This document shows, in pieces, positions 1,473 to 11,293 of a stretch of 64,000 nt of DNA (the first letter of the stretch is position 1; each line of letters begins with the position of its first letter). This stretch comes from a phage. The stretch is taken from NCBI GenBank assembly GCA_014437165.1, contig GCA_014437165.1_4090.3; one strand, 5' to 3'. A program made the position numbers and the translations under genes. The notes under the pieces are model-generated. The model ran no database searches. It had not been told where the DNA came from and worked only from the letters and a program-made list of their open reading frames with translations.

Positions 1473-1811
1473 ATGGAACAATATTTTGAATTAATAAACA
1501 AAGTATCATTTTATGTAGTATCTTTGGTTTGGGTGTATTATATGTTTTGCTACATTATTGCATTCTTCCGATACACTACTTTATATGAACGTATCTACTA
1601 TGATGCCCCAATTTCATTCTTGATGTTTTGTGCATGTACGTGGGGAATATTAGAAGTACTGATATGTGGGTATAGTACTGATGAATTAAATCTGGTATCG
1701 GTCTTGACTGGGTTTTCATTTGTTGTTATGATAGCTGCCGTTCCAGTATGGTTGTTCTTTGTACTAGTTCATCGCATTGATATATGGCGTTCTAATATCC
1801 CTGAAAAGTAA
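1473..1811 (+). CDS. small multi-pass membrane protein (paralog family A, 1 of 3)
   Basis: Mostly hydrophobic; C-terminal tail HRIDIWRSNIPEK shared in pattern with next two ORFs. Confidence 0.55.
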   Translation: MEQYFELINKVSFYVVSLVWVYYMFCYIIAFFRYTTLYERIYYDAPISFLMFCACTWGILEVLICGYSTDELNLVSVLTGFSFVVMIAAVPVWLFFVLVHRIDIWRSNIPEK

Positions 1812-1820
1812 GGATTGGTA

Positions 1821-2162
1821 ATGATTTATTACACTAACATGTTTGCCTATGCTGTTGCTTGCATTTACATTGTTTACTTCTTATTCGGTGGAGTACTGTG
1901 CTTCTTTAAGTACAAAACATTGTTCAACCGAATGTACCCAAATCATCCAATTGTAGTTGTACTTTTGATTCTTTCAGTTTCTCAAATAATCGTTGAAACT
2001 ACAATGGGTATCAGTAGTGTACATTATAGTTTTGGCACTATAGTAATTATTACTATGCTTATTGCATACATTTTAGTACTTGGATATGGTATCTTTGGTA
2101 ATATTGGTATGAAAATGTATCATCGAATTAAAACATTACGTGATAATCTACCGGAGCGTTGA
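1821..2162 (+). CDS. small multi-pass membrane protein (paralog family A, 2 of 3)
   Basis: ATG 1821 after AAGGA (track start 1815 is TTG); tail HRIKTLRDNLPER. Confidence 0.55.
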   Translation: MIYYTNMFAYAVACIYIVYFLFGGVLCFFKYKTLFNRMYPNHPIVVVLLILSVSQIIVETTMGISSVHYSFGTIVIITMLIAYILVLGYGIFGNIGMKMYHRIKTLRDNLPER

Positions 2163-2163
2163 T

Positions 2164-2508
2164 ATGTATAATTTGAACCTAATCTCATATATTATAACAA
2201 CACTGTTTACATTCTATGCCTTTGTTGGTATAATCCTACTGTACTTTAAATTTTATAAAGTGTTTAACCGTTTCTATCCTTCAATGGAGAATGAGTTTTT
2301 CTTTGTGTTGTACGTATGTTACACATTAATGGCTACATGTTTCACTGTAGCCGATGGTGTCATCGGCATTAAAACTGCTTCCCCAAATGGTAGTACGCTG
2401 GTTGCATTTATTCTTACTGGATTCCTTGCAACTTATATTGCCTTCATTACAACATGGTCAGTGGTTGAATTTCTCTTGCGACTACGAAAGAATATGCCGA
2501 ATCGATAG
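2164..2508 (+). CDS. small multi-pass membrane protein (paralog family A, 3 of 3)
   Basis: ATG 2164 immediately after the previous stop; tail LRLRKNMPNR. Confidence 0.55.
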   Translation: MYNLNLISYIITTLFTFYAFVGIILLYFKFYKVFNRFYPSMENEFFFVLYVCYTLMATCFTVADGVIGIKTASPNGSTLVAFILTGFLATYIAFITTWSVVEFLLRLRKNMPNR

Positions 2509-2517
2509 GAGACATAT

Positions 2518-2772
2518 ATGTTTGCGTTGCGTAATAAAAACACTAAAGAATTATTATGTATTGATACCGTATGGGATTGTGCGGGATCAACTACAGTTCT
2601 TGAAGAAGGAACTGGATATTGCGTGTTTGTTGTACATGATAGGAATGAACTCGAATTATTACTTGCTGAGTTCAATGCTGGTGGTAATCCTAACTGTACT
2701 GAATACCCTGAGATTATCAATCCAGCACCACCAGGCTCTTATGAAATTCTACAACTGTGGGAGTTGAAGTAA
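2518..2772 (+). CDS. hypothetical protein
   Basis: RBS TAGGAGA then ATG 2518; 84 aa. Confidence 0.5.
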   Translation: MFALRNKNTKELLCIDTVWDCAGSTTVLEEGTGYCVFVVHDRNELELLLAEFNAGGNPNCTEYPEIINPAPPGSYEILQLWELK

Positions 2773-3152
2773 TGCGTCAAATGCACAAAGTAACCGAGCT
2801 AAACAAGCGTCTGGTTAAACAATCAATGTTCGAGGATAAAGAGTCTTATTATAACTTTAAACGTGCAGTAGAGGCTGCTATCCACATTCAGAAGCTTAAA
2901 GAACGTGGTTGTATTATTCTGGAAAATGGTTCGGAAGTTGTAACGGATGACTTTAGTGTAGCGTTTGATGTTTCACCTGACGGGACGCTATCAATGCCCC
3001 GCTTAGGAACTGGAAACATGACTGTTTGGGTTGGCTTCACTATGGGGAATGTACCTGGTACTGTGTACGTAGATGATGCAGAATTGAAAGACAGTTTCAA
3101 AAACTTATCTTATCTTGAACCACAATACGCACATGAAATGAATTTATTTTGA
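2772..3152 (+). CDS. hypothetical protein
   Basis: ATG 2772 (MRQMHK..) after GGGAG; overlaps previous stop. Confidence 0.5.
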   Translation: MRQMHKVTELNKRLVKQSMFEDKESYYNFKRAVEAAIHIQKLKERGCIILENGSEVVTDDFSVAFDVSPDGTLSMPRLGTGNMTVWVGFTMGNVPGTVYVDDAELKDSFKNLSYLEPQYAHEMNLF

Positions 3153-3153
3153 G

Positions 3154-9192: not shown

Positions 9193-9539
9193 TGTTTGAA
9201 GCTTATCTTGAGTTTTTAAGGAGTAGTCCAGTTGCACATTCACTTGCAGGGATTATTCTAACAACTTATGTATCATTTTGGGTAGTTATGTTTCTAGGAT
9301 GGTATTTTAAACGACAATTCTATAAACGTAATGGTGAAGATTTTATGAATTCTGTCATTAATCAATCGTTGTTTGCATCAACATTGATTGCATGTATTGT
9401 AGCAACACTCACAGGAAAGGTACTACCAGCTTTTTCCGCAGTTTACGGCACACTTGGGATGATATGTTTAACTTTTATATTGACCATTAAAATTTGTTGT
9501 GTTATGATTGAACTTCGAAATAAGATACCGGAGGAATGA
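9192..9539 (+). CDS. small multi-pass membrane protein (family B, 3 of 8)
   Basis: Start overlaps previous stop; hydrophobic; tail LRNKIPEE. Confidence 0.5.
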   Translation: MFEAYLEFLRSSPVAHSLAGIILTTYVSFWVVMFLGWYFKRQFYKRNGEDFMNSVINQSLFASTLIACIVATLTGKVLPAFSAVYGTLGMICLTFILTIKICCVMIELRNKIPEE

Positions 9540-9874
9540 TGGAGTACTTTATTGATTTACTGCCGTGGTATATGAAAGTTAGTACTTTGTACTATATTAT
9601 TAGTGCTGGATTCTACTTTCTGATGTGGTTCTTCAAACGACCAATTTCAGTATTCATCGCTGATAACATGCTGCAATTAAAATTACACGCATGGTTTGGT
9701 ATGGCGATGATTATGCCTATTATTCACTACTCAATGATTAGTAGAGGTTTCCGTTCTAATGGTGAACCAATTGTATTAGTATTCTATTGGGGTTCAACTA
9801 TTGCATATGTAAGTTTGTTGTTGTTCCCAGTCGTTCATAAATTACGTGCTAAAGTTCCTGATGCGAGGTACTAA
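9536..9874 (+). CDS. small multi-pass membrane protein (family B, 4 of 8)
   Basis: ATGA start/stop overlap; hydrophobic. Confidence 0.5.
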   Translation: MMEYFIDLLPWYMKVSTLYYIISAGFYFLMWFFKRPISVFIADNMLQLKLHAWFGMAMIMPIIHYSMISRGFRSNGEPIVLVFYWGSTIAYVSLLLFPVVHKLRAKVPDARY

Positions 9875-10188
9875 TGGATATCGTAACATTGATTTACACG
9901 TTGTATTCATTCTATTTCATTATGTGTTGGGTTGGATTTTTATTTGTACTGAAGATGTTTGATTATGTTGAAAAACAGATAAAAGAATTTTGTATTCCTT
10001 TTATTGGGTCAACCATTATTAGTATTACTTGTTTGTATTATTTGGTATGTGATCCACCTGATAATACAGCAATGATTGACTTGATGTTACTACCAACAAC
10101 TGTTACTTTTTTATGTAGTCTGATGCCGCCGATTAGCCGTGGACTAACAGAATTTAGACGCAATCAAAAGCGTAAACGAGGGATGTAA
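9874..10188 (+). CDS. small multi-pass membrane protein (family B, 5 of 8)
   Basis: Start overlaps previous stop; hydrophobic; basic C-tail. Confidence 0.5.
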   Translation: MDIVTLIYTLYSFYFIMCWVGFLFVLKMFDYVEKQIKEFCIPFIGSTIISITCLYYLVCDPPDNTAMIDLMLLPTTVTFLCSLMPPISRGLTEFRRNQKRKRGM

Positions 10189-10556
10189 TGGAAATTGCTC
10201 TTATTATCTTAACTGCTATGCTGTTTATTAGTACTGTGGTTATAATTGGTAAATTCTTTTGTGTATCATTTTTAGAAACGGTATACGATGAAATTGCTGA
10301 TGATTATGAATTACAAGCCGGATTTTTCATTACGTATTGGCTTAGTTTATTTTGTCTAGTCATTGCTTGGATTTTACATATCTTTAAATGGGGTATGGTA
10401 GACGGTGATCCTATTATGGCAATTATTGTTCTAGTGTTTGGTATCCTTGGTGGTGCAGTGCATAATCTAATGGTTATCTGGCAAACTGTTCAATATGTTT
10501 TGGTTCCCTATTTCGAAAAGATGCACAGTACAATTAAAAAACGTAAACGAGGTTAG
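10188..10556 (+). CDS. small multi-pass membrane protein (family B, 6 of 8)
   Basis: Start overlaps previous stop; hydrophobic; tail KKRKRG. Confidence 0.5.
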   Translation: MEIALIILTAMLFISTVVIIGKFFCVSFLETVYDEIADDYELQAGFFITYWLSLFCLVIAWILHIFKWGMVDGDPIMAIIVLVFGILGGAVHNLMVIWQTVQYVLVPYFEKMHSTIKKRKRG

Positions 10557-10557
10557 T

Positions 10558-10920
10558 ATGAACGGGATAGAATTATCTTTCGTTGGTCAATTACTAGTAA
10601 TGGCGTATACATTTATCTTCTCACTGAATGCATTCGTGTGCATTGGGAAGTACTTCCATAAGCGACCATTATCAAATATATATGATGTAATCCAAAAGAG
10701 ATATAGTCCAGCATATACTGTGTTGGGTACAGTATTCAATTTTGGTTTTATTGTATTAATAATTGGACTGTTCACATCCTCTTTGAATACAATAACCTTC
10801 GGTCTTATGATATGTTCATTGGTATTAGCCGTAATTATATGTTGTTTAGTACTGCACCTTGTGGTACTATTGTATATAAAGATCTCTGAAATCCACCAAC
10901 GTTTGGGTATGAGGAAATAA
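10558..10920 (+). CDS. small multi-pass membrane protein (family B, 7 of 8)
   Basis: ATG 10558 (MNGIELSF..) right after previous stop; hydrophobic. Confidence 0.5.
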   Translation: MNGIELSFVGQLLVMAYTFIFSLNAFVCIGKYFHKRPLSNIYDVIQKRYSPAYTVLGTVFNFGFIVLIIGLFTSSLNTITFGLMICSLVLAVIICCLVLHLVVLLYIKISEIHQRLGMRK

Positions 10921-10921
10921 T

Positions 10922-11293
10922 ATGAGTTACCGTGAGATATTTTCCATTATTTCAATTATTATGTTCAGTACTGGAACACTGGTATGGTTATTATACTTCT
11001 TCTGTATTAATCCAGTGTATAATATGTTATGTAATATTAAATCAAGTGCCGGATATATCACTTTTATGGTCTTTATGGGATATTATTGTCTAAGCATTTT
11101 AGGTGTTGTTTTGGTTGTTATATTTGATGTGGGACCAAATAGTGATGGTATGGAAATACATGAATTAATAACCATGTTTGGATGTATGATACCAACAGCA
11201 CTACTGTTTGTAGCTACTGGTAGTGGATTGATAAAATTATATAATTATTTAAAATCCATTCATAATTCCATTCATAATAAGCGTATGTCATAA
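10922..11293 (+). CDS. small multi-pass membrane protein (family B, 8 of 8)
   Basis: ATG directly after previous stop; hydrophobic. Confidence 0.5.
   Translation: MSYREIFSIISIIMFSTGTLVWLLYFFCINPVYNMLCNIKSSAGYITFMVFMGYYCLSILGVVLVVIFDVGPNSDGMEIHELITMFGCMIPTALLFVATGSGLIKLYNYLKSIHNSIHNKRMS

What the first reader, a model, noticed from the sequence alone, without database searches (positions are those of the whole stretch)
1473..11293. Two tandem arrays of small multi-pass membrane proteins (3 and 8 copies)
1473-2508 and 8513-11293 encode consecutive ~110-aa hydrophobic proteins with start/stop overlaps and short basic C-tails. The first two genes of the second array are near-identical over their N-terminal 45 residues. 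Tandemly amplified inner-membrane proteins in an early phage region are candidates for superinfection exclusion, holin or antiholin-like activity, or blocking host defence complexes.
Basis: partly seen in the sequence, partly recalled or inferred. Interest (0 to 1): 0.6.

Follow-up and report, generated by a model that had tools for sequence, protein, structure and literature searches.

The report
Jumbo-phage arrays of three-helix membrane proteins
The two gene arrays are real. They encode eleven diverged copies of one uncharacterised family of small three-pass inner-membrane proteins, found only in RaK2-like jumbo phages, not transcribed from late promoters, and almost certainly not the lysis holin; what they do is still untested.

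Summary
The window is an Asteriusvirus jumbo coliphage, 99.9% identical to phages G17 and Sharanji.

**What is there.** The 3 + 8 tandem ORFs exist as described:
- They are 104-123 aa, and each has a Shine-Dalgarno motif.
- dN/dS is 0.09-0.5.
- Each has three hydrophobic helices, with Lys+Arg placed for an N-out/C-in topology.

**One old family.** All eleven belong to one very diverged family with no Pfam, NCBIfam or PDB match. It is an ancient ordered array, not a recent amplification. RaK2, GAP32, Munch, Hallingskeid, XbC2 and Serratia BF carry 4-11 members in similar subtype order, always directly downstream of a T4 NrdC.10-like P-loop NTPase. Copy number varies between close relatives (7 or 8), and single members are deleted in viable phages.

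**Timing.** Both arrays lie behind sigma-70-type promoters. The T4-like late-promoter motif ATAAATA is absent from the whole 64 kb (46 expected), although it marks gene starts in the structural region.

**Function.** A holin role is therefore unlikely. My best guess is a set of separately acting, pre-late inner-membrane proteins for exclusion, immunity or host takeover. A membrane complex working with the NTPase is the main rival. Function remains inferred.

The parts
422..457 (+). PeSL-like composite element. A hairpin terminator (GGGTTGAC-TTCG-GTCAGCC) carries the -35 box inside it, followed by a T-run and an extended -10 box. It opens the transcription unit that contains array 1.
   Evidence: G17 annotates a terminator at this position.
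486..1127 (+). T7 gp0.7-like protein kinase. It is context only, as the first gene of the unit.
   Evidence: phrog_15752, E 4.7e-92; G17 annotation.
1124..1152 (+). Sigma-70-like promoter (TTGACA-17-TATTCT) with a palindrome in its spacer. It lies upstream of the 93-aa gene and array 1.
1189..1470 (+). Soluble 93-aa protein that always precedes array 1. Function unknown.
   Evidence: phrog_37917. The same position is occupied in BF17 and JNE01.
1473..1811 (+). Family member, subtype A (112 aa, 3 TM, C-tail ...RSNIPEK).
   Evidence: phrog_19285, E 4e-58; TM and topology; dN/dS 0.19.
1821..2162 (+). Family member, subtype A (113 aa, 3 TM, C-tail ...RDNLPER).
   Evidence: phrog_19285, E 1.4e-58; dN/dS 0.14.
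2164..2508 (+). Family member, subtype A (114 aa, 3 TM, C-tail ...RKNMPNR).
   Evidence: phrog_19285, E 3e-4; group HMM 1.9e-34; dN/dS 0.29.
7613..7648 (+). PeSL-like terminator/promoter cassette upstream of the NTPase gene.
7677..8447 (+). P-loop NTPase (256 aa) homologous to T4-type NrdC.10. It is the conserved upstream neighbour of array 2 across the RaK2-like phages examined.
   Evidence: tblastn shows about 40% identity to T4-like NrdC.10 and 45-71% to RaK2-like phages. AAA-type Pfam hits are mostly below threshold. Neighbourhoods are shown.
8455..8483 (+). Array 2's own promoter, TTGACAGTACT...AGTACTATAAC. It belongs to a phage-wide promoter class with AGTACT repeats.
   Evidence: It is conserved in slurp01, BF17 and JNE01. 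Over-representation of the class is shown.
8513..8854 (+). Family member, subtype B (113 aa). This is the extra copy, present in about half of the Asteriusvirus genomes.
   Evidence: phrog_19454. It is absent in slurp01, BF17, phAPEC6 and PBECO4.
8854..9192 (+). Family member, subtype B (112 aa).
   Evidence: phrog_19454, E 1e-53; dN/dS 0.23.
9192..9539 (+). Family member, subtype B2 (115 aa, C-tail ...RNKIPEE). This is the protein that was modelled.
   Evidence: phrog_19046. AF2 model pLDDT 73.5, with helices 2-11, 13-38, 48-74 and 80-110. Mostly deleted in Salmonella phage SD-1_S14.
9539..9874 (+). Family member, subtype B3 (111 aa).
   Evidence: phrog_27396; RaK2 ORF312 is its orthologue.
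9874..10188 (+). Family member, subtype C1 (104 aa, C-tail ...KRKRGM).
   Evidence: phrog_33258; duplicated in JNE01.
10188..10556 (+). Family member, subtype C2 (122 aa, C-tail ...KKRKRG).
   Evidence: phrog_26405. hhalign links to C3 (1e-7) and C4 (6e-10).
10558..10920 (+). Family member, subtype C3 (120 aa).
   Evidence: Group HMM; dN/dS 0.37; truncated in SD-6_S16 (P0029).
10922..11293 (+). Family member, subtype C4 (123 aa). It is the most variable member between Asteriusviruses (99% down to 38% aa identity).
   Evidence: RaK2 ORF315 is its orthologue.
11299..11322 (.). Perfect AGTACT-containing hairpin that closes array 2. The T-run is on the minus strand only.
   Evidence: G17 annotates a terminator here.

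Best explanation
**Shown.** The eleven genes are diverged paralogues of one family that is specific to RaK2-like jumbo phages. Each protein has three helices with the N-terminus in the periplasm, a basic first cytoplasmic loop and a basic cytoplasmic C-tail. The genes are tightly packed and probably translationally coupled, because the Shine-Dalgarno sequence of each gene is written in the C-tail codons of the gene before it. They lie behind sigma-70-type promoters in a region with no late promoter.

**Inferred.**
- The proteins are made before late gene expression and insert into the host inner membrane.
- They act there as separate, partly redundant modules rather than as one fixed machine.
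- Each module has a conserved TM1/loop-1 anchor and a more variable TM2-loop-TM3 hairpin, which binds a target within or at the membrane.
- The most likely job is protection of the long jumbo-phage infection at the membrane level. That could mean excluding DNA entry by superinfecting phages, or neutralising membrane-acting host or competitor factors.
- The closest analogies are T4 Imm and the 3-4-TM immunity proteins against pore-forming colicins.
For: - **Real genes:** SD motifs and dN/dS of 0.09-0.5.
- **Membrane topology:**
  - Three hydrophobic helices with a Lys+Arg distribution of 6/34/4/45.
  - An AF2 model with three long helices.
  - GenBank notes on GAP32 array proteins (two of which, gp525 and gp526A, match the family HMM at E below 1e-6) report 3 TM by TMHMM and Phobius.
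- **One family:** leave-out profile test, hhalign links between subtypes and cross-hits between subtype HMMs and PHROGs.
- **Non-late expression:**
  - Consensus sigma-70 promoters at 1124 and 8455 and PeSL cassettes.
  - ATAAATA has 0 copies in 64 kb against 46.5 +/- 7.6 expected. In the G17 structural region most of the 12 copies lie 23-65 nt upstream of gene starts.
  - In relative CBB the RpoD-promoter region of short ORFs was proposed as the early region, and ATAAATA as the late promoter (PMC5259590).
- **Not virion proteins:** none is in the phAPEC6 virion proteome.
- **Separate, dispensable modules:**
  - Copy number ranges from 4 to 11 between genera.
  - Near-identical phages carry 7 or 8 copies.
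  - Different lineages duplicated different members.
  - Viable Salmonella phages have deleted or truncated members.
- **Allelic diversity:** the C4 member ranges from 99% to 38% aa identity within the genus, and dS varies from 0.09 to 1.5 along the array, which indicates a mosaic origin.
- **Variable hairpin:** TM2, loop 2 and TM3 are less conserved within orthologue groups (0.50-0.57) than the N-terminus, TM1 and loop 1 (0.65-0.68).
Against: - No functional data exist, and no homologue has a known function.
- dN/dS is below 1 everywhere, so an arms race is not demonstrated.
- The conserved subtype order and the constant NTPase neighbour across phages of Escherichia, Klebsiella, Salmonella, Cronobacter, Erwinia, Serratia and Xanthomonas look more like a conserved phage-intrinsic function than host- or competitor-specific weapons.
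- Timing rests on promoter motifs, not on transcript data.
- The topology comes from hydropathy and charge bias, not from a dedicated predictor or an experiment.
Confidence: 0.4

Rival explanations
1. The paralogues are subunits or adaptors of one inner-membrane assembly that works with the NrdC.10-like P-loop NTPase encoded just upstream. Their basic cytoplasmic C-tails would recruit the NTPase to the membrane. In this reading the module serves the phage's own cycle rather than conflict with competitors.
For: - The NTPase-to-array adjacency is kept in every RaK2-like genome examined: Asteriusvirus, JNE01, Hallingskeid, RaK2, GAP32, Munch, XbC2 and Serratia BF. In several the gap is 1-10 nt, or a soluble gene intervenes, while the genes upstream of the NTPase differ.
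- Subtype order is conserved.
- Tight spacing and SD overlap would favour balanced co-expression.
- C-tail motifs (R-x-N/K-I/L-P-E and K-R-K-R-G) are conserved across subtypes.
- The jumbo-phage NTPase lacks the roughly 100-aa N-terminal domain of T4-type NrdC.10.
Against: - Copy number varies from 4 to 11.
- Members are duplicated, lost or truncated in viable phages.
- SD-1_S14 has lost most of the NTPase gene but keeps the array.
- Array 1, and Hallingskeid's second locus, lie 6-17 kb away from the NTPase.
- About 1,200 T4-like genomes have NrdC.10, and the one examined (JS98) has no such array next to it.
- Part of the C-tail conservation is explained by the embedded SD of the next gene.
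Confidence: 0.2
2. They are modulators of host membrane physiology, such as transport, respiration, proton-motive force or envelope stress. They would keep the cell productive during the long jumbo-phage latent period and have no role in exclusion or defence.
For: - The evidence for pre-late expression and membrane location is the same as for the best explanation.
- Conservation across hosts of different genera fits targets that all Gram-negative inner membranes share.
- Selection is purifying.
Against: - Nothing links them to any transporter or respiratory component.
- High allelic diversity and copy-number turnover are unusual for proteins aimed at conserved housekeeping targets.
Confidence: 0.15
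3. They are holins or antiholins that time lysis. The argument is that class I holins such as lambda S105 have the same size, three-TM N-out/C-in topology and basic C-tail.
For: - Architecture matches.
- The RaK2 paper found no T holin or RI antiholin (PMC3622015).
- The clade's endolysin has an N-terminal TM domain (PMC5259590).
Against: - There is no ATAAATA late promoter anywhere in the window, and the arrays sit behind sigma-70 promoters.
- No endolysin or spanin lies nearby. The endolysin is the homologue of 121Q gp532 and UE-S1 ORF534, elsewhere in the genome.
- No holin family matches in Pfam or PHROGs.
- fEgEco12 has a 220-aa protein elsewhere with a weak HHpred match to T4 holin T.
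- Eleven holin copies would be without precedent.
Confidence: 0.04
4. The ORFs are not functional genes, only hydrophobic reading frames in AT-rich DNA.
For: All are annotated only as hypothetical proteins, and two are left unannotated in phAPEC6.
Against: - dN/dS is 0.09-0.5.
- SD motifs precede every start.
- Orthologues are conserved down to about 25% identity across genera, in the same order.
Confidence: 0.01

Closest known systems
GAP32 gp522-527 and RaK2 ORF309-316, annotated only as 'putative membrane protein' or 'hypothetical protein'
   Same: RaK2 ORF309-316 match the family HMM. In GAP32 only gp525, gp526 and gp526A give hits at E below 1e-5; gp522 and gp523 are placed by architecture only. 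They occupy the same position after the NrdC.10-like NTPase and have three TM segments. The GAP32 GenBank notes cite TMHMM and Phobius for this.
   Different: Nothing beyond TM prediction has been published for them in the papers I could search. The family, its clade-wide ordered array and its link to the NTPase have not been described.
Class I holins (lambda S105 type)
   Same: Size of about 105-125 aa, three TM helices with N-out/C-in topology, and a charged basic C-terminal tail (the properties of S105 are from my own knowledge).
   Different: No sequence match, no lysis cassette, no late promoter, and eleven copies.
T4 Imm and Sp superinfection-exclusion proteins
   Same: Small early phage proteins of the inner membrane in a T4-related lineage, and a plausible functional analogy.
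   Different: No match to Pfam Imm_superinfect. From my own knowledge, Imm has two TM segments and is a single gene. Here there are three TM segments and a multigene array.
Immunity proteins against pore-forming colicins (E1, Ia, A types)
   Same: Inner-membrane proteins of roughly 100-180 aa with 3-4 TM helices, thought to act by helix-helix recognition inside the membrane (my own knowledge). This is a model for how a variable TM hairpin could give specificity.
   Different: No sequence similarity. Those proteins are bacterial and plasmid-borne, and they do not occur in arrays.
PeSL composite promoter-terminator cassettes of T4-type phages (PMC2839356, PMC4122927)
   Same: The cassettes flanking the units here are a hairpin of the form A3G3...C3T5, overlapping a near-consensus sigma-70 promoter. 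They are repeated nine times in the window and sit at indel end points.
   Different: PeSLs were described in Straboviridae, not in RaK2-like jumbo phages. Here the -35 box lies inside the hairpin stem.

Membership tests
Class I holin (lambda S105 type) | Three TM domains with N-out/C-in topology, about 95-130 aa, charged C-tail | tested here: met
   Hydropathy and Lys+Arg bias of 6/34/4/45; AF2 helices.
Class I holin (lambda S105 type) | Sequence match to a described holin family | tested here: not met
   No Pfam holin family at E <= 1. All PHROG hits are 'unknown function' or 'membrane protein'.
Class I holin (lambda S105 type) | Gene lies in a lysis cassette next to an endolysin or spanin | tested here: not met
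   The neighbours are a kinase, denV, an HNH nuclease, an NTPase and small unknown ORFs. The endolysin homologues lie elsewhere in the genome.
Class I holin (lambda S105 type) | Late expression | tested here: not met
   In silico only. ATAAATA has 0 copies in the window against 46.5 expected, yet it marks gene starts in the structural region. The arrays have sigma-70 promoters.
Class I holin (lambda S105 type) | Forms lethal membrane holes that release endolysin | not testable with these tools
   Needs expression and lysis assays.
T4 Imm (Pfam Imm_superinfect) | Sequence match to the family | tested here: not met
   No Pfam hit.
T4 Imm (Pfam Imm_superinfect) | Blocks DNA entry of superinfecting phage | not testable with these tools
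   Needs exclusion assays.
PHROG families 19285, 19454, 19046, 27396, 33258 and 26405 (all of unknown function) | Significant full-length profile match | tested here: met
   E values of 1e-51 to 1e-69 for eight of the ten proteins scanned. Weak cross-hits link the PHROGs to each other.
One superfamily covering both arrays | Detectable homology between subtypes beyond shared composition | tested here: met
   Leave-out profile scores beat every decoy. hhalign gives A-B2 5e-5, A-C4 5e-5, B2-B3 5e-6, C2-C3 1e-7 and C2-C4 6e-10, but HH probabilities are only 10-97%. Cross-hits between subtype HMMs appear. The most remote links (C1, B3) are weak.
T4-type NrdC.10 P-loop NTPase (for gene 7677-8447) | Sequence homology to NrdC.10 of T4-like phages | tested here: met
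   tblastn shows 39-41% identity over about 80% of the protein, E about 1e-42, to genes annotated nrdC.10.
PeSL promoter-terminator cassette (for the flanking elements) | Stem-loop terminator fused to an early sigma-70 promoter, repeated, and lying at module boundaries | tested here: met
   The deletion in SD-1_S14 ends at two of these elements. The definition is taken from PMC4122927.

The most novel reading that the evidence does not exclude
The NrdC.10-like NTPase and the ordered array of three-helix proteins form a phage-built, ATP-driven inner-membrane apparatus. It would be a hallmark of RaK2-like jumbo phages with no counterpart in T4-like phages, and the paralogues would be its membrane subunits or adaptors.
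Probability: 0.15. Interest if true: 0.7.

Novelty: new variant of a known kind. Interest (0 to 1): 0.45.

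Why it matters
RaK2-like jumbo phages, including the coliphages 121Q, PBECO4 and G17 that are being considered for therapy, are about 80% 'hypothetical protein'. This work makes three things usable for follow-up:

- **A defined family.** Eleven anonymous ORFs become one family with a predicted topology, subtypes, a conserved gene neighbour and a predicted expression class.
- **A testable candidate.** The family is a concrete candidate for a membrane-level exclusion or host-takeover system.
- **Natural variants.** Viable phages with 7 or 8 copies, and the deletions in the Salmonella SD phages, can be compared directly.

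If the link to the NTPase proves functional, it would also give a first clue to the role of NrdC.10, a gene conserved in more than a thousand T4-like genomes.

Tried and rejected
- **Structure searches.** Foldseek with the AF2 model found only the protein's own orthologue in BFVD and nothing in the PDB. The afdb50 library was not available.
- **PDB sequence search.** A profile search found nothing.
- **Sub-threshold Pfam hits.** TRAP-gamma, DUF1475, DUF443 and SUR7 all scored far below their cut-offs and were rejected as TM-composition matches. NCBIfam gave nothing.
- **False positive.** P0033, a 1,617-aa protein with 11 matched stretches, is a low-complexity repeat protein and was discarded.
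- **Over-broad profile.** A 52-sequence profile across genera (A4) had 16% mean column identity and found fewer relatives than the 11-paralogue profile.
- **T4-like comparison.** In JS98 the gene after nrdC.10 is soluble, so the array is not a general companion of NrdC.10.
- **Imm check.** Hallingskeid's annotated 'superinfection immunity protein' is not homologous to the window's 83-aa hydrophobic ORF and has no Pfam hit.
- **DNA repeats.** Only the first 130 nt of genes 8513 and 8854 still align, so this is not a recent amplification.
- **Literature.** Searches on Asteriusvirus, 121Q, PBECO4, RaK2, CBB and phAPEC6 found no description of these arrays.

Full report
**Identity of the window.** Megablast places the region in the Asteriusvirus jumbo coliphages. 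It is 99.9% identical to phages vB_EcoM_G17 and Sharanji and 96-99% identical to 121Q, PBECO4 and phAPEC6. Window coordinates equal G17 locus L001 coordinates minus 601. Every record annotates the genes in question as hypothetical proteins.

**Checking the observation.**
- The six-frame ORF list shows three consecutive ORFs at 1473-2508 and eight at 8513-11293 on the plus strand.
- With starts that agree with the G17 annotation, the proteins are 104-123 aa and GRAVY is 0.57-1.05.
- Each ATG is preceded at 6-10 nt by GGAG, GAGG or TAAGGA.
- Five of the seven junctions in array 2 are TAATG or TGATG overlaps. The remaining junctions are gaps of 1-9 nt.
- The SD of each downstream gene is written in the last codons of the upstream gene. 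Examples are CCG GAG GAA TGA TG (P-E-E-stop/start) and CGA GGG ATG TAA TG (R-G-M-stop/start). This argues for translational coupling and also explains part of the Arg/Gly/Glu-rich C-tails.
- Against phage BF17 (about 85% DNA identity), dN/dS is 0.09-0.51 for all ten comparable members. That is similar to other accessory genes nearby and higher than the NTPase value of 0.024.
- I conclude that these are real, translated genes under purifying selection.

**Membrane topology.**
- A 17-residue Kyte-Doolittle scan finds exactly three hydrophobic segments in each of the eleven proteins.
- Summed Lys+Arg counts are 6 (N-terminus), 34 (loop 1), 4 (loop 2) and 45 (C-tail). By the positive-inside rule this gives N-out, loop 1 in, loop 2 out and C-in.
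- AlphaFold2 on gene 9192 with a 37-sequence family alignment gives a short N-terminal helix and three long helices at 13-38, 48-74 and 80-110. Mean pLDDT is 73.5.
- Independently, the GenBank record of Cronobacter phage GAP32 notes '3 transmembrane domains shown using TMHMM 2.0 and Phobius' for the proteins at the equivalent position.
- I did not run a dedicated topology predictor myself.

**Evidence that this is one family.**
- Pairwise identity is low, 12-26% to the first member. The exception is the pair 8513/8854, at 47% overall and 28/45 in the N-terminal part.
- The alignment is colinear: TM1, then a [WY][FY]FK[RK] juxtamembrane motif, an aromatic-rich loop, TM2, a polar Pro/Asp/Asn/Gly turn, TM3, and a basic tail ending in R-x-N/K-[ILMV]-P-[DE]-x or KRKRG.
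- Each protein was scored against a profile built without its close relatives. Each scored above its reversed sequence and above all 200 block-shuffled decoys that keep the hydropathy profile (z 3.4-9.4).
- Profile-profile comparison connects the subtypes in a network: A-B2 5e-5, A-C4 5e-5, A-B 8e-4, B-B2 4e-4, B2-B3 5e-6, C1-C2 3e-4, C2-C3 1e-7 and C2-C4 6e-10.
- PHROGs splits them into six families of unknown function with weak cross-hits.
- HH probabilities for the remotest links are low. The single-family claim is therefore well supported for most members and only moderately for C1 and B3.

**Distribution.**
- A profile of the eleven paralogues found 29 clusters among 5.8 billion proteins. 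It found 24 representatives among 1.84 billion, one of which is a spurious repeat protein.
- All genuine hits map to these eleven genes or to relatives in similar jumbo phages.
- There is no Pfam, NCBIfam, PDB-sequence or fold match.
- An HMM scan of all ORFs in the window finds exactly eleven members.

**An old, ordered array next to an NTPase.**
- The 256-aa protein at 7677-8447 is a P-loop NTPase homologous to T4-type NrdC.10. It has about 40% identity to T4-type NrdC.10 and matches more than 1,200 phage records in all, mostly T4-like.
- In every RaK2-like genome I opened, its homologue is followed at once, or after one soluble gene, by an array of 3-TM proteins of 100-130 aa:

| Phage | Members after the NTPase |
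|---|---|
| JNE01 | 8 |
| Hallingskeid | 10-11, plus 2 elsewhere |
| RaK2 | 8 (ORF309-316) |
| GAP32 | 6 |
| Salmonella phage Munch | 4 |
| Xanthomonas phage XbC2 | 7 |
| Serratia phage BF | 5 |

- Subtype HMMs built from Asteriusvirus sequences classify the RaK2 array as B2, B2, B, B3, C1, C2, C4, and then an extra type that is absent here. The window reads B, B, B2, B3, C1, C2, C3, C4.
- In the T4-like phage JS98 the gene after nrdC.10 is soluble.

**Turnover.**
- About half of the Asteriusvirus records lack gene 8513 and so have 7 copies: slurp01, BF17, phAPEC6, PBECO4 and others.
- JNE01 has one B copy but two C1 copies. RaK2 has two B2 copies.
- Salmonella phage SD-1_S14 has lost most of gene 9192 and most of the NTPase gene. 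SD-6_S16 carries a truncated C3 member.
- Within the genus the C4 member ranges from 99% to 38% aa identity.
- dS along the array varies from 0.09 to 1.5, which indicates mosaic ancestry.
- Within orthologue groups the N-terminus, TM1 and loop 1 are somewhat more conserved (0.65-0.68) than TM2, loop 2 and TM3 (0.50-0.57).

**Expression class.**
- The units are bounded by a repeated element, AAAGGGTTGACTTCGGTCAGCCCTTTTTGCTATAAT. It is a hairpin terminator with the -35 box inside the stem and an extended -10 box.
- The element lies at 422, 4917, 6199 and 7613, with five degenerate copies elsewhere. This fits the PeSL cassettes of T4-type hyperplastic regions (PMC4122927).
- Array 2 also has its own promoter at 8455-8483, TTGACAGTACT...AGTACTATAAC. 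It is conserved in slurp01, BF17 and JNE01 and belongs to a promoter class that is strongly over-represented in the window.
- Array 1 follows TTGACA-17-TATTCT at 1124.
- The T4-like late motif ATAAATA, and its complement, occur 0 times in the 64 kb against 46.5 +/- 7.6 expected.
- In 50 kb of the G17 structural region the motif occurs 12 times, mostly 23-65 nt upstream of a gene start on the matching strand.
- The CBB paper proposed ATAAATA as the late promoter of this clade, together with a gp55-like sigma factor. It proposed the RpoD-promoter region of short ORFs as the early region (PMC5259590).
- The arrays are therefore very probably early or middle genes. This is inferred from motifs, not from transcripts.
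- None of the array proteins is in the phAPEC6 virion proteome.

**Function.** Nothing here tests function directly.
- The holin reading fits the architecture but fails on timing, location and family membership. Lysis candidates also exist elsewhere in these genomes.
- Variable copy number, lineage-specific duplications and natural knock-outs favour separately acting, partly redundant modules over one obligate complex. I therefore rank a set of pre-late inner-membrane exclusion, immunity or host-takeover proteins first, at 0.4.
- The constant NTPase neighbour and the conserved subtype order keep a membrane assembly working with the NTPase as a serious rival, at 0.2.
- A role in host membrane physiology follows at 0.15.

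**Novelty.** The family is annotated only as hypothetical or 'putative membrane protein'. I found no paper that describes it. It is a new, clade-specific variant of a familiar kind, namely small early phage membrane proteins. Its unusual features are the ordered multigene array and the conserved NTPase partner.

Noticed in passing
Whole window, compared with G17 170000-219999 (L018): ATAAATA and its complement TATTTAT are completely absent from the 64 kb, against 46.5 +/- 7.6 expected. TAAATA and TATTTA are the most under-represented hexamers. In the structural region most of the 12 copies lie 23-65 nt upstream of gene starts. The motif seems to be reserved for late promoters and purged elsewhere.
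   Followed up: partly
422-457, 4917-4952, 6199-6234, 7613-7648; degenerate copies at 5503, 37637, 41325, 44788 and 47540: A PeSL-like composite terminator/promoter cassette is repeated nine times. In Salmonella phage SD-1_S14 the HNH gene 6490-7608 is missing, and the deletion ends at these cassettes. This is what PeSL-mediated module shuffling would produce.
   Followed up: partly
8455-8483, 37175, 39906, 43581, 43857, 47178, 47237, 56466 and others: There is a second promoter class, TTGACAGTACT-N~11-(A)GTA(C)TATAAT. TTGACAGTACT occurs 26 times (up to 1 mismatch) against 1.9 expected. Paired AGTACT motifs occur 17 times against 0.09 expected. These could be a binding site for a phage regulator laid over sigma-70 promoters.
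   Followed up: partly
12455-24071, minus strand: An array of about nine paralogous RCC1-repeat proteins ('DNA condensation protein'). Homologues gp003-gp010 are in the phAPEC6 virion proteome, yet no ATAAATA late promoter precedes these genes here.
   Followed up: no
4011-4262 and 5535-5729: Two further small hydrophobic ORFs (83 and 64 aa) that do not belong to the 3-TM family and have no PHROG or Pfam hit.
   Followed up: partly
7677-8447: The NrdC.10-like NTPase exists as two allele classes within Asteriusvirus, at 97-100% and about 59% aa identity (UE-S1, ph0011, CRJP21, WPEC3, JNE01). The flanking DNA is much more similar.
   Followed up: no
L005 8457-8585 and L011 7781-7909: A conserved 42-aa soluble ORF (MKPxxWxIEDxRxMR...YVKVLNSKE) sits inside the arrays of Erwinia phage Hallingskeid and Salmonella phage Munch. 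It is absent from the window.
   Followed up: no
4271-4642: A 123-aa protein (phrog_4301, unknown function). By eye it has kinase-like motifs (AIKIP..., DAKPEN, KLDYGD), which would make it a second small kinase-like gene in the same unit as the gp0.7-like kinase.
   Followed up: no
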